Shown here piece after piece: positions 1,568-2,611 of a stretch of DNA of 10,066 nucleotides. A program made the translations under genes and the position numbers. Position 1 is the first letter of the stretch. Each line of letters starts with the position of its first letter. Source of the stretch: a virus (Duplodnaviria > Heunggongvirae > Uroviricota > Caudoviricetes); IMG/VR virus record IMGVR_UViG_2663763227_000008, positions 1 to 10,066 of that record; one strand, 5' to 3'. The notes below the pieces were generated by a model. The model did no database searches. It was not told where the DNA came from and worked only from the letters and a program-made list of their open reading frames with translations.

Positions 1568-2611
1568 ATGAGCACTGTAGTTGAGTCAGTAATGGCACGC
1601 TATGCACAAGTTGTTGAGGAAGGTTACGTCGTAGATGGCGGGCCAAAATTCAAAAGTTATGCAGTTTCCAATCTGCGCGGTGGTGTTGGTAAGTCCACGA
1701 TGACATTCAACCTCGCCTATGAGCTGTCACGACGTAACTCCGTATTAGTGGCTGACTTATGCCCGCAATGTAATTTAACGGAGACACTATTGCGTGGTGA
1801 AAAACCGGTTGTAACAATAGCTAATGCACTGACACCAAAAATGCTGGGTCCAGCTTTTGGTGAGCAGCCAGAAGATATTTCATATCGAGTAAGTAATTTC
1901 TGCCCAGATTTTAAAGGTGGTAAGGCATGTTATGCGATTCCAGGTGATCCTGAGCTATTCGCTTTCCCATCAAGCATGTATCAACAACTACAAGTAGCGC
2001 TATCTCGCGGAGAACCAAAAGCAGTATCAACACTATTAAATTCTCTTCGCGCAATAATGAACGATGAAGCGAAAGACAAAAAATGCGAAATTTTATTGAT
2101 GGATACAAGCCCTTTCTATGCTGGAGGAACACACCTAGCATGGTGCGCGTCTGAGGCATTGATTATCCCTGTACGCGTAGATGAACACTCAATTGAGTCA
2201 CTTCATCTCACAATGGAAATGCTGGCAAATAAATCAAAAGATTTTGTATTATGGAATGAGCGTGCGGGTGGGCTTGGGGCTCCAAAAGTAGCAGCGATCG
2301 TAATGACAATGGCTGGTTCAAAAAGCCGTAAATCATCAACACCAGGTCGCGCATCTCAAATGTACATAGAGAGAGCTGTAAAAATCGCTGAAAAATACAG
2401 TCATCTCTTTGCCGATGAAGATGTTAGCAAAGCAATTGTGGTTACAGATGATTTTGTATCAAGCGGGCAAATTAGTGGGGCTGAAAGCATACCAATATCA
2501 CAGCTAAAAGTTGGTCGCTTCCATACAGTAAGTGAAGGGAAAAGGTTACAAGTTAACCAGTCGGTTACTCGATATCAAAGACAACTTAAGTATCTGGCAA
2601 GTATTCTTTAA
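1568..2611 (+). CDS. Orphan ParA/MinD/Soj-superfamily P-loop ATPase (347 aa) occupying the rexA-rexB position
   Basis: Deviant Walker A NLRGGVGKST (aa 35-44). A ParA-type A' motif VLVADLCPQCN (typical vLviDlDPQgN). Walker B EILLMDTSPF with D179, then ALIIPVRVDEHSIESL (typical IIPvqpe..sl.gl). Strong SD. No ParB-like ORF follows before the terminator at 2617. Confidence 0.8.
   Translation: MSTVVESVMARYAQVVEEGYVVDGGPKFKSYAVSNLRGGVGKSTMTFNLAYELSRRNSVLVADLCPQCNLTETLLRGEKPVVTIANALTPKMLGPAFGEQPEDISYRVSNFCPDFKGGKACYAIPGDPELFAFPSSMYQQLQVALSRGEPKAVSTLLNSLRAIMNDEAKDKKCEILLMDTSPFYAGGTHLAWCASEALIIPVRVDEHSIESLHLTMEMLANKSKDFVLWNERAGGLGAPKVAAIVMTMAGSKSRKSSTPGRASQMYIERAVKIAEKYSHLFADEDVSKAIVVTDDFVSSGQISGAESIPISQLKVGRFHTVSEGKRLQVNQSVTRYQRQLKYLASIL

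What the first reader, a model, noticed from the sequence alone, without database searches (positions are those of the whole stretch)
1670..1774. Atypical catalytic motifs in the ParA-like protein: signature lysine replaced by arginine, Cys substitutions in the A' motif
ParA/MinD/Soj proteins have a deviant Walker A, K-G-G-x-G-K-[ST], whose first (signature) lysine reaches across the ATP-sandwich dimer. Here the motif is L-R-G-G-V-G-K-S-T, with R37 (CGC at 1676-1678). The usually conserved D-x-D-P-Q-G-N is D-L-C-P-Q-C-N, with C65 and C68. The Walker B Asp (D179) is kept. This suggests a divergent subfamily with altered dimerisation or hydrolysis control rather than a standard partition ATPase.
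Basis: partly seen in the sequence, partly recalled or inferred. Interest (0 to 1): 0.5.

Follow-up and report, generated by a model that had tools for sequence, protein, structure and literature searches.

The report
Variant ParA-like ATPase, probable prophage defence
The odd active-site residues are real and are the conserved hallmark of a large, uncharacterised family of stand-alone ParA-like ATPases carried by prophages and transposons, whose closest studied relative is a single-gene anti-phage defence protein found at the same place in a Salmonella prophage.

Summary
In the 347-aa ORF (1568-2611, +), R37 sits on the ParA/Soj signature lysine and C65 on the water-activating aspartate. K42, D63 and D179 are kept. 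R37 and C65 are invariant in 120/120 close homologues and 80/80 metagenomic relatives. C68 varies (C/G/R) and is not diagnostic.

The gene is not a partition ATPase. It has no ParB or other conserved partner. There is no main-clade copy in 72,556 plasmids. It exactly replaces rexAB between lambda-type cI and the Timm terminator, and elsewhere it travels inside IS1-family transposons.

Its closest characterised relative is GiPD474. That protein is an experimentally shown single-gene prophage defence protein located next to the repressor. The match is 24% identity, with hhalign probability 99.5% over 295 columns. GiPD474 also has the Cys but keeps the Lys. BcsQ shares the Arg, the Cys and the Arg's Asp partner, which points to a slow, ATP-locked dimer.

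A new feature is an array of CCTGC(A) motifs at exact 19/9-bp spacing over the gene's own promoter. It is present in about 97 of 104 loci across many phyla, and a different motif replaces it in divergent subfamilies. The ATPase therefore probably binds its own operator.

Defence function, slow hydrolysis and self-binding are inferences, not demonstrations.

The parts
1313..1340 (+). Left junction of the inserted module. A terminator-like hairpin lies directly after the cI stop codon (1311).
   Evidence: Terminator-like site with 12 pairs followed by a T run. Homology to lambda-immunity phages (HK542, HK544, SfI, lambda) ends at window 1312-1322.
1442..1522 (+). Array of five CCTGC(A) motifs at exact 19-bp spacing (starts 1442, 1461, 1480, 1499, 1518). 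Probable operator bound by the ATPase itself.
   Evidence: Positions. TRF reports period 19. The 3-motif pattern is found 3 times against 0.00 expected in 200 shuffles, and nowhere else in the window. The same sense-strand array is present in about 97 of 104 homologous loci, with spacings of 19 bp (309 cases), 9 bp (115) and 28 bp (21). The consensus is A-CCTGC-A followed by a T-rich tract. The motif changes with the protein subfamily.
1513..1541 (+). Putative sigma-70 promoter overlapping the last motif: -35 TTGCTC 1513-1518, TG 1533-1534, -10 TTTAAT 1536-1541.
   Evidence: Read by eye. The consensus scanner did not flag it. In 44 of 90 distinct arrays a TTGNNN-N16-18-TANNNT site spans a CCTGC motif, against about 10.6 sites of any kind in shuffles.
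1554..1560 (+). Shine-Dalgarno AAGGAGG, 7 nt before the ATG.
   Evidence: Sequence.
1568..2611 (+). ORF of 347 aa: a stand-alone ParA/MinD-fold ATPase (WP_021568301.1) of the R37/C65 family.
   Evidence: Pfam AAA_31 50.6 bits (cut-off 27) and CbiA 38.4 (cut-off 25.4). AF2 model pLDDT 84.9, pTM 0.88. Foldseek to Soj, McdA, delta and ParA at probability 1.0. Sister of the GiPD474 family at hhalign probability 99.5%.
1676..1678 (+). R37 codon (CGC): Arg at the signature (trans-acting) lysine position.
   Evidence: aligns with BcsQ R10.
1691..1693 (+). K42 codon: the canonical cis P-loop lysine, retained.
   Evidence: It aligns with T15 of BcsQ.
1754..1762 (+). D63-L64-C65. The first A'-motif Asp is kept. 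Cys replaces the water-activating Asp (Soj D44, BcsQ C39, GiPD474 C59).
1769..1771 (+). C68 codon: a variable position (C/G/R), not diagnostic.
2102..2104 (+). D179 codon: Walker B Asp, invariant.
2180..2188 (+). D205-E206-H207 in the invariant motif PVRVDEHS. D205 aligns with BcsQ D150, the salt-bridge partner of R10. H207 aligns with BcsQ N152, a trans-acting residue.
   Evidence: hhalign, invariance, and BcsQ residue roles from PMC7840130. The R37-D205 pairing here is an inference.
2608..2700 (+). Right junction: the lambda backbone resumes at the rexB 3' end and the Timm terminator.
   Evidence: 86-87% identity to lambda, HK542 and SfI at the rexB end. The HK542 record annotates Timm there.

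Best explanation
The ORF is a self-contained cargo (moron) module made of a hairpin, an iteron/promoter array and one gene. It has replaced rexAB between cI and Timm in a lambda-immunity prophage. It encodes a ParA/MinD-fold ATPase from a large, horizontally mobile family.

Most likely function: a single-gene superinfection-exclusion or anti-phage defence function, like its sister protein GiPD474.

Most likely mechanism:
- ATP is bound normally, because K42, S43/T44, D63 and D179 are kept, and it drives formation of a sandwich dimer.
- The trans-acting Lys is replaced by R37, which is probably held away from the nucleotide by D205 as in BcsQ.
- The water-activating Asp is replaced by C65.
- Intrinsic hydrolysis is therefore very slow, so the dimer is a long-lived switch rather than a fast-cycling partition motor.
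- The protein probably binds the CCTGC(A) array over its own promoter and so sets its own level.

Shown here: the residues and their conservation, the homology to GiPD474 and to ParA-fold proteins, the lack of a partner, the genomic slot, and the array with its co-variation.

Inferred: the defence function, slow hydrolysis, the R37-D205 pairing, and self-binding to the array.
For: Residues and register.

Homology to GiPD474:
- GiPD474 is P0288. The paper's knock-out primer arms translate to its N and C termini.
- BLASTP gives 24% identity over 308 aa, E 4e-20.
- hhalign gives 99.5%, E 3.8e-23, over 295 columns spanning residues 28-332.
- GiPD474 is one gene just downstream of the prophage repressor. 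Its Klebsiella phage homologue is also directly downstream of CI.
- GiPD474 lowers plating of T4, Alf5 and FO1 by about 5 logs, including in E. coli (PMC12724215).

Genomic slot:
- The module replaces rexAB exactly.
- In at least 25 other loci from many genera the gene lies downstream of an S24/cI-type repressor on the same strand.
- It lies next to attP in the P2-like Ralstonia phage RsoM1USA.

Distribution is sporadic, as expected for mobile cargo. It is in 5 of 5426 complete E. coli genomes. It shows about 60% identity across Proteobacteria, Verrucomicrobia, Acidobacteria, Actinobacteria, Planctomycetes, Bacteroidota and Chlorobi. It is carried inside IS1-family transposons with terminal inverted repeats.

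Slow-hydrolysis precedent: BcsQ with R10, C39 and D150 is by default an ATP-locked dimer with weak ATPase. These residues align with R37, C65 and D205.

Array. Motif type follows protein clade.
Against: - No experiment exists on this family. PADLOC gives only a 16-bit P-loop match.
- GiPD474 is only 24% identical, keeps the signature Lys and has no upstream array. Function may have diverged.
- BcsQ is not among the 50 best structural matches and the hhalign probability is only 85.7%. The shared R/C/D residues may be convergent and may behave differently when the cis Lys is present.
- Direct repeats are an unusual target for a two-fold symmetric dimer.
- About 12 independent families of arrays of the same type occur in phage contigs without the gene. 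The array could therefore have a binder or role independent of this ATPase.
- Some family members, such as the one in Sorangium, lie in plain chromosomal context.
Confidence: 0.5

Rival explanations
1. It is a partition or tethering ATPase. The upstream array would be a centromere, as in type Ib and type II par loci. The ATPase alone, or with a host protein, would anchor array-bearing DNA to the nucleoid.
For: It has the ParA fold. An iterated array sits upstream of the gene over its promoter, as with parC/parH-type centromeres. PHROG 164 is named 'ParA-like partition protein'.
Against: There is no ParB/ParG/ParR-like gene or any conserved neighbour. No main-clade copy occurs in 72,556 plasmids. 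The distant Aeromonas plasmid relative co-exists with a canonical ParA. The hosts are integrated prophages and IS elements, which need no partition. Loss of the trans Lys and the catalytic Asp removes what a partner-stimulated ratchet needs.
Confidence: 0.1
2. It is mainly a transcription or lysogeny regulator. As an ATP-switched DNA-binding protein it would act on CCTGCA arrays at its own promoter and at other sites, modulating prophage or host genes. Soj represses sporulation promoters and P1 ParA-ADP represses its own operon in a comparable way.
For: The operator-like array co-varies with the protein. The gene is placed beside the immunity switch. Orphan arrays exist in other phage genomes.
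Against: Only one array occurs per locus in 1.39 Mb of flanking DNA and none elsewhere in the window. The IS1-borne copies and the pan-phylum spread argue against a role tied to one phage's circuitry. The sister protein acts as a defence when expressed alone in a heterologous host.
Confidence: 0.13
3. It is an accessory factor of the IS1-family transposon, for example for target choice or immunity in the manner of MuB, TnsC or IstB. Prophage copies would be leftovers.
For: An IS1-family transposase is adjacent in 19 of 59 lineage groups. Inverted repeats enclose the transposase, array, ATPase gene and a small ORF in L021 and L024.
Against: Most prophage copies, including this window, have no transposase nearby yet keep the gene and array intact under purifying selection. 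Known IS1 elements need no ATPase (established knowledge of IS1).
Confidence: 0.05
4. It is a catalytically dead relic of a ParA gene with no current function.
For: Two residues that are catalytic in Soj and MinD are replaced.
Against: There are 103 invariant columns across the 36 aligned members, which come from several phyla. Differences between close copies are synonymous only. The P-loop Lys, the Mg-site Asp and Walker B are all retained. BcsQ and GiPD474 both function with the same Cys.
Confidence: 0.02

Closest known systems
GiPD474 (STM474_RS13505), the Gifsy-1 prophage single-gene anti-phage defence protein of S. Typhimurium 4/74 (Bosma, Noireaux and Bowden 2025, PMC12724215)
   Same: ParA/MinD fold and similar size (361 vs 347 aa). 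Collinear homology runs over almost the whole length, including the insertion after switch I and the C-terminal hairpin (BLASTP E 4e-20, hhalign 99.5%). Cys is invariant at the catalytic Asp position, and the D205-equivalent Asp is invariant. It is a single gene with no partner, placed just downstream of the prophage repressor opposite cro.
   Different: Only 24% identity. The GiPD474 family keeps the signature Lys (K28, invariant). It has no CCTGC array upstream. Defence has been shown only for GiPD474, and its mechanism is unknown. The R37 family spans many phyla and also rides on IS1 transposons.
BcsQ, the cellulose-secretion ParA/MinD-type ATPase of E. coli (PDB 6YAR and others; Abidi et al. 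2021, PMC7840130)
   Same: Arg at the signature Lys position (R10 and R37). Cys at the water-activating Asp (C39 and C65). The Asp that salt-bridges the Arg is conserved (D150 and D205). BcsQ shows what such a site does: a default ATP-bound sandwich dimer with very weak ATPase.
   Different: BcsQ also lacks the cis Lys (T15), whereas K42 is kept here. BcsQ needs BcsR and sits in the bcs operon. Scores fall below the family cut-offs: Pfam CBP_BcsQ 18.5 against 21.3, and TIGR03371 26.7 against 157.85. It is not among the top 50 fold matches. R156 of BcsQ has no counterpart (S211).
Soj/ParA chromosome and plasmid partition ATPases (T. thermophilus Soj 1WCV/2BEK, H. pylori Soj, type Ib ParA)
   Same: Best structural matches (Foldseek E 2e-10, probability 1.0). 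Shared P-loop, first A'-motif Asp and Walker B.
   Different: These have the signature Lys and the catalytic Asp (Soj D44), a Spo0J/ParB partner that stimulates hydrolysis, and parS sites. They are about 250 aa. The window protein has roughly 100 extra residues, mostly inserted between switch I and Walker B.
McdA (carboxysome positioning; PDB 6NON/6NOP)
   Same: A ParA-type ATPase that lacks the signature Lys (SGGQGKT). It is among the best PDB matches.
   Different: It has Ser rather than Arg at that position. Its 6NOP structure is titled McdA(D38A)-ATP complex, so an Asp is present at the hydrolysis site, unlike C65 here. It works with McdB. Its cellular role and context are different.
Type Ia ParA (P1 ParA, F SopA) autoregulation, and type Ib/II centromere arrays upstream of par operons
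   Same: Works alike in one respect: a ParA-family ATPase gene is preceded by repeated sites over its own promoter, and type Ia ParA proteins themselves bind their operator (review PMC9178275).
   Different: Type Ia proteins use an N-terminal helix-turn-helix that is absent here. ParB acts as co-repressor, and the repeats in types Ib and II are bound by ParB, ParG or ParR rather than by the ATPase.
RexAB of phage lambda
   Same: It occupies exactly the same slot between cI and Timm and is an exclusion system expressed in lysogens (the exclusion function is established knowledge).
   Different: The proteins are unrelated. RexAB has two components and is co-transcribed with cI, whereas here a hairpin and an own promoter separate the gene from cI.

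Membership tests
ParA/MinD (SIMIBI, deviant Walker A) superfamily | P-loop GxxGxGK[ST] with the cis lysine | tested here: met
   G38-G-V-G-K42-S-T is invariant.
ParA/MinD (SIMIBI, deviant Walker A) superfamily | Signature (trans-acting) lysine two residues before the first Gly (KGG) | tested here: not met
   R37 aligns with Soj K15 and is invariant.
ParA/MinD (SIMIBI, deviant Walker A) superfamily | A'/switch I motif with two Asp (DxD), the second activating water | tested here: not met
   D63 is kept. The second position is C65 and aligns with Soj D44.
ParA/MinD (SIMIBI, deviant Walker A) superfamily | Walker B Asp after a hydrophobic strand, and the overall fold | tested here: met
   D179 is invariant. 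Pfam AAA_31 and CbiA score above their cut-offs. Foldseek probability is 1.0 to Soj, McdA and ParA.
Partition (par) system ATPase, type Ia/Ib | Adjacent gene for a centromere-binding partner (ParB/ParG/ParR) | tested here: not met
   No conserved neighbour in 107 loci falling into 59 groups. None is present in the window.
Partition (par) system ATPase, type Ia/Ib | Curated model score (NCBIfam NF041546 ParA_partition; TIGR03453 RepA) | tested here: not met
   36.7 against 180, and 26.1 against 348.
Partition (par) system ATPase, type Ia/Ib | Residence on replicons that need partition (plasmids, chromosome origin regions) | tested here: not met
   Zero main-clade hits in 72,556 plasmids. The hosts are integrated prophages and IS elements.
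Partition (par) system ATPase, type Ia/Ib | Cis-acting repeated site near the operon | tested here: inconclusive
   An array exists. Whether it acts as a centromere was not testable.
BcsQ | R at the signature position, Cys/Ser at the catalytic Asp, and an Asp partner for the Arg | tested here: met
   R37, C65 and D205 align with R10, C39 and D150.
BcsQ | Thr in place of the cis lysine, BcsR partner and bcs operon context, and curated model scores | tested here: not met
   K42 is kept. The context is a prophage. CBP_BcsQ scores 18.5 against 21.3, and TIGR03371 26.7 against 157.85.
GiPD474-type prophage defence ATPases | Full-length homology to GiPD474 | tested here: met
   hhalign 99.5%, E 3.8e-23, 295 columns. 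BLASTP E 4e-20. At 24% identity it is a sister family, not the same family.
GiPD474-type prophage defence ATPases | Single gene in the prophage immunity region next to the repressor | tested here: met
   Window: cro(-), cI(+), gene(+). GiPD474: cro-like(-), CI-like(+), gene(+).
GiPD474-type prophage defence ATPases | KGGVGKT P-loop with the signature Lys | tested here: not met
   K28 is invariant in A3. R37 stands at that position here.
GiPD474-type prophage defence ATPases | Protection against phage infection | not testable with these tools
   Shown only for GiPD474.
Known defence systems in PADLOC-DB v2 | Match to a system model | tested here: not met
   The only hit is PDC-M28B, E 0.0011, 16 bits, over 36 P-loop residues.

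The most novel reading that the evidence does not exclude
The R37/C65 ATPase would be a sequence-specific, nucleotide-switched DNA sensor. Long-lived ATP dimers would assemble head-to-tail on CCTGC(A) iterons spaced 19/9 bp apart. The protein would use this both to set its own level and to recognise arrays of the same type that lie, without the gene, inside other phage genomes. Examples are the arrays inside Eaa/DUF551 genes of Klebsiella phages and inside the spanin region of GC-rich, apparently Pseudomonas-type, phage contigs. That would make it a defence that reads a DNA repeat pattern. Alternatively, the orphan arrays would be phage decoys against it. This would be a new principle for a ParA-fold protein and for single-gene immunity.
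Probability: 0.12. Interest if true: 0.85.

Novelty: new variant of a known kind. Interest (0 to 1): 0.6.

Why it matters
ParA/MinD ATPases are textbook positioning motors whose cycle depends on the signature lysine and the catalytic aspartate. This is a very widespread, strongly conserved branch that has given up both. It works without a partner and moves between phyla on prophages and transposons.

The first functional report on its sister protein, GiPD474 (2025), shows strong single-gene phage defence with unknown mechanism. The present family adds three testable handles that GiPD474 lacks:
- a defined active-site variant (R37, C65, D205) with a structural precedent in BcsQ;
- a cognate DNA array that co-varies with the protein;
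- natural contrasts between family branches, namely K versus R and array versus no array.

If the inferences hold, a ParA-fold switch has been turned into an immune or exclusion device. It would also add another type of cargo to the variable slot downstream of cI in lambda-immunity phages, which holds rexAB in lambda and two other genes in HK542.

Tried and rejected
1. Conserved partner gene. All-against-all comparison of 2,940 neighbouring ORFs from 107 loci found no universal neighbour. The recurrent ones are S24/cI-type repressors, an IS1-family transposase, a small KGG-like ORF and Cro-like proteins.
2. Plasmid partition role. No main-clade copy occurs in PLSDB.
3. BcsQ membership. Scores are below cut-offs, the context is wrong and K42 is retained.
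4. CxxC, redox or metal site from C65-P-Q-C68. Rejected because C68 varies. A role for the invariant C65, C193 and the near-invariant C112 was not tested.
5. Known RNA element in the upstream region. Rfam gave only sub-threshold noise over the cI terminator. Most of the array lies upstream of the predicted promoter, so it is a DNA element.
6. Array as chance or plain tandem repeat. Rejected by shuffles, by its presence in about 97 of 104 loci with quantised spacing, and because only the 5-7-nt core is conserved while spacers vary.
7. Second arrays near the gene. None convincing in 1.39 Mb. The L011 candidate looks like chance.
8. Literature on the motif or the family. No paper contains RGGVGK or RGGIGK in this sense. 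The phage RsoM1USA paper only lists 'ParA family protein'. Searches for orphan ParA in prophages gave nothing specific.
9. Locating gipd474 in E. coli genomes with a primer arm. No match. It was identified instead through the protein database.
10. The R37-D205 contact could not be checked in the model because coordinates are not exposed. A dimer could not be modelled.
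Full report
**1. What is in the window**

The window is the immunity region of a lambdoid prophage of E. coli. It holds cro (297-497, -), a lambda-type cI (598-1311, +), the 347-aa ORF in question (1568-2611, +), and then an N-like gene and early-left genes. The same protein (WP_021568301.1, 'ParA family protein') occurs in only 5 of 5426 complete E. coli genomes. In each case it lies in mosaic prophages beside a lambda-type repressor.

Homology to lambda-immunity phages stops at 1312-1322, just after the cI stop codon. 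It resumes at 2608 with the 3' end of rexB and the Timm terminator. A module of about 1.3 kb therefore replaces rexA-rexB exactly. In phage HK542 the same slot holds two other unrelated genes. The slot is thus a variable cargo site.

**2. The observation**

The register is confirmed by independent alignments.
- R37 falls on the signature lysine of Soj.
- C65 falls on Soj D44, the residue mutated in the hydrolysis-deficient, dimer-trapping D44A structure 2BEK.
- D179 is the Walker B aspartate.
- K42 and D63 are the normal P-loop lysine and first A'-motif aspartate.

R37 and C65 are invariant in the 120 closest homologues, which share 62-100% identity. They are also invariant in the 36-sequence alignment A1, which has 103 invariant columns, and in all 80 more distant metagenomic relatives ([LF]RGG[IV]GK[ST]T ... 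DxC[PAS]Q).

Still more distant full-length cluster representatives show other non-lysine residues at the signature position (C, S, E, T). The next family out has K again but still has the Cys.

C68 varies (C/G/R).

Close copies differ only at synonymous sites. Enteric relatives are 73% identical in DNA and 85% in protein. The residues are therefore selected features.

**3. What kind of protein it is**

Pfam assigns AAA_31 and CbiA above threshold. Every curated partition, BcsQ or RepA model scores far below its cut-off.

The AlphaFold2 model is confident (pLDDT 84.9, pTM 0.88). Its best structural matches are Soj, McdA, the delta protein of pSM19035 and other ParA proteins. About 100 residues beyond a 250-aa ParA core lie mostly between switch I and Walker B. 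The invariant C-terminal part includes a low-confidence loop (298-304) and a beta-hairpin (318-328).

**4. Not a partition system**

Genomic contexts were examined in 107 loci that fall into 59 lineage groups. The loci come from Proteobacteria (alpha, beta, gamma), Myxococcota, Verrucomicrobia, Acidobacteria, Actinobacteria (including Mycobacterium and Frankia), Planctomycetes, Chlorobi and Bacteroidota, all at about 57-65% identity.

No partner gene is conserved. Two contexts recur.
- In at least 25 loci the gene lies directly downstream of an S24/cI-type repressor on the same strand.
- In 19 of 59 groups it lies next to a divergently oriented IS1-family transposase.

In two Solirubrobacterales contigs, terminal inverted repeats of 17-26 nt enclose the transposase, the array, the ATPase gene and a small ORF (about 3.2 kb). 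The module is therefore transposon cargo there.

In the P2-like Ralstonia phage RsoM1USA the gene sits beyond attP, and its authors only listed it.

None of 72,556 plasmids carries a main-clade member. A 32%-identical relative on small Aeromonas plasmids co-exists with a canonical ParA.

**5. Closest characterised relatives**

*BcsQ.* It has RGGVGTT and C39. Its R10 is turned away from ATP and salt-bridged to D150, while N152 and R156 act in trans. The protein is by default an ATP-bound sandwich dimer with weak ATPase (PMC7840130; PMC9178275). The BcsQ sequence was verified against the PDB. The profile alignment places R37 on R10, K42 on T15, C65 on C39, D179 on D124, D205 on D150 and H207 on N152. 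The match is partial (85.7%, 145 columns), and BcsQ is not among the best 50 fold matches. This is a mechanistic precedent, not membership.

*GiPD474.* A 2025 paper describes a single gene in the immunity region of Gifsy-1. Deleting it restores plating of phage FO1. Expressing it from a plasmid lowers plating of T4, Alf5 and FO1 by about 5 logs in Salmonella and E. coli. Its mechanism is unknown (PMC12724215).

I identified its sequence as P0288, because the published knock-out primer arms translate to its N and C termini.
- The window protein aligns with it over 308 residues at 24% identity, E 4e-20.
- The two family profiles match at 99.5% probability, E 3.8e-23, over 295 columns (residues 28-332). 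This includes the regions outside the generic ParA core.
- The GiPD474 family has invariant K28, K33, D57, C59, D184 and D210. The Cys and the D205 equivalent are therefore shared, and the Arg is particular to the present family.
- GiPD474 and its Klebsiella phage homologue lie in the same arrangement of cro(-), repressor(+), gene(+).

**6. A cis element that travels with the gene**

Upstream of the ORF, five CCTGC motifs lie on the coding strand at 1442, 1461, 1480, 1499 and 1518. The spacing is exactly 19 bp. None is expected by chance and there is none elsewhere in the window.

About 97 of 104 homologous loci carry 4-12 such motifs in the 300 bp upstream. The background is about 0.5 per 300 bp per strand, and the reverse motif is rarely present. 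Spacings between successive motifs are 19 bp (309 cases), 9 bp (115), 28 bp (21) and 38 bp (8). The consensus is A-CCTGC-A followed by a T-rich tract.

The last one or two motifs overlap a sigma-70-type promoter in 44 of 90 distinct arrays, against about 10.6 promoter-like sites in shuffles. In the window I read TTGCTC (1513-1518), 17 nt, then TTTAAT (1536-1541) preceded by TG. The scanner did not flag this site. Rfam finds nothing there.

In divergent subfamilies the same place and layout hold other motifs.
- CC(A/G)CAC in a Rhizobiales subclade.
- ACCCGCA, partly as the palindrome GCGGGTCAACCCGC, or ACCACTT in an FRGGIGKST clade.
- AAAACT at 19-bp spacing.
- CGACA at 28-bp spacing.
- CTTGATCTGCC at 29-bp spacing.

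Motif type follows protein clade. The only gene common to all these loci is the ATPase gene. The most economical reading is that the ATPase recognises the array and regulates itself. This is an inference.

The C-terminal hairpin residues differ between clades (RFHTV, KSYTI, ESHSI, RQHRI, RKYMV). That is compatible with a role in specificity but does not show one. The LRGGIGKTT/DTCPQ subfamily and the GiPD474 family show no array.

**7. An unexplained complication**

A scan of viral contigs for four CCTGC motifs at 19-bp spacing returned 80 loci in 34 sequence clusters.
- About 9 clusters have the gene downstream.
- About 14 are plain tandem repeats.
- About 12 independent clusters are arrays of the same appearance, including the T-rich spacers, with no ATPase gene.

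Two of the orphan clusters are large. One lies antisense inside Eaa/DUF551-type genes of Klebsiella phages. The other lies antisense at the start of a probable o-spanin ORF (my reading of its lipobox; no family search was run) in GC-rich contigs that look Pseudomonas-like. One array (L211) lies between two hairpin, terminator-like sequences and, compared with L004, looks like a module that lost its gene.

These arrays may be scars, trans targets, decoys, or sites for another factor. They lower my confidence that the ATPase is the only binder.

**8. Most likely mechanism and confidence**

Shown:
- The atypical residues and their conservation.
- The ParA fold.
- The absence of a partner.
- The cargo nature of the module and its slot.
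- Sister-family homology to a proven defence protein.
- The array and its co-variation with the protein.

Inferred:
- A defence or exclusion function (about 0.5).
- A slow, ATP-locked dimer with R37 paired to D205 (about 0.55).
- Autoregulation by binding the array (about 0.55).

Rivals are a tether or partition role (0.1), a regulator of phage or host genes (0.13), a transposon accessory factor (0.05) and a dead relic (0.02).

**9. Novelty and score**

The family itself is uncharacterised, and I found no paper on it. It is best filed as a new variant of a known kind. It is a ParA-fold, GiPD474-related prophage cargo ATPase with a distinct active site, its own iteron operator and a pan-phylum, IS1-assisted spread.

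Interest is 0.6. The active-site finding alone is moderate, because BcsQ and GiPD474 give it precedents. Together with the array and the link to a mechanistically unsolved defence protein, it becomes directly testable.

Noticed in passing
Viral contigs L201-L280, e.g. L230:12309-12370 (+), L224:10628-10689 (-), L211, L219, L221, L222, L232: 'Orphan' arrays of CCTGC(A) at 19-bp spacing with T-rich spacers occur without any ParA-like gene, in about 12 independent sequence families. The two largest lie antisense inside Eaa/DUF551-type ORFs of Klebsiella phages and antisense at the start of a probable o-spanin ORF in GC-rich, Pseudomonas-like contigs. L211 looks like a module whose gene was deleted, leaving the array between two hairpin, terminator-like sequences.
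   Followed up: partly
L021:4770-7963 and L024:4672-7923: Terminal inverted repeats (17 nt at 100% and 26 nt at 92%) enclose an IS1-family transposase, the array, the ParA-like gene and a small ORF, about 3.2 kb in all. The module is passenger cargo of an IS1-family transposon. The same transposase is adjacent in 19 of 59 lineage groups.
   Followed up: partly
e.g. L021:7041-7280 (-), L022:7037-7414 (-), L040:7034-7273 (-): A small ORF of 56-126 aa lies convergent to the ATPase gene and starts right after its stop codon, in 11 lineage groups, mostly the IS1-type loci. It has a Lys/Gly-rich C-terminal motif (RKGGLKGGKARA...RW). It has no Pfam or NCBIfam match.
   Followed up: partly
Window 1313-1340: A strong hairpin with a T run lies immediately after the cI stop codon, at the left edge of the insert. 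In lambda, rexA follows cI in the same transcript (established knowledge). Here the cargo gene seems insulated from the pRM transcript and to rely on its own promoter.
   Followed up: partly
Window 1442-1522 and homologous arrays: From memory of restriction-enzyme specificities, not checked with a tool: the extended motif CACCTGC(A) contains the recognition sites of the type IIS enzymes BspMI/BfuAI (ACCTGC) and AarI (CACCTGC). Many copies read CTGCAG (PstI). Whether this is more than coincidence is unknown.
   Followed up: no
L162, L166, L178 (upstream of the gene): In the FRGGIGKST subfamily part of the operator is a palindrome (GCGGGTCAACCCGC) flanking the -35/-10 region. The main clade uses only direct repeats. 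The same protein fold may therefore read its sites in two geometries.
   Followed up: no
L321 (Aeromonas veronii plasmid pWP8-S18-ESBL-11_2, 5.9 kb): A 32%-identical R/C-type relative (CNLRGGIGKTSL ... DTCPQGN) sits on a small plasmid that also encodes a canonical 214-aa ParA. No array is visible upstream.
   Followed up: partly
L011:1051-5779: In the Pseudescherichia contigs (L011; L012 is 84% identical to the query at the same position) the gene is not next to a cI-type repressor. It lies downstream of ORFs that look like a helicase, an HNH protein, a primase and a zinc-finger regulator, judged from their sequences only. That would suggest a satellite or island-type element rather than a lambdoid immunity region.
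   Followed up: no
L200 (Ralstonia phage RsoM1USA, 37103-38962 of the record): In this P2-like phage the gene lies after integrase and attP and is followed by a DUF3800 gene. This is another typical cargo position at a prophage end.
   Followed up: no
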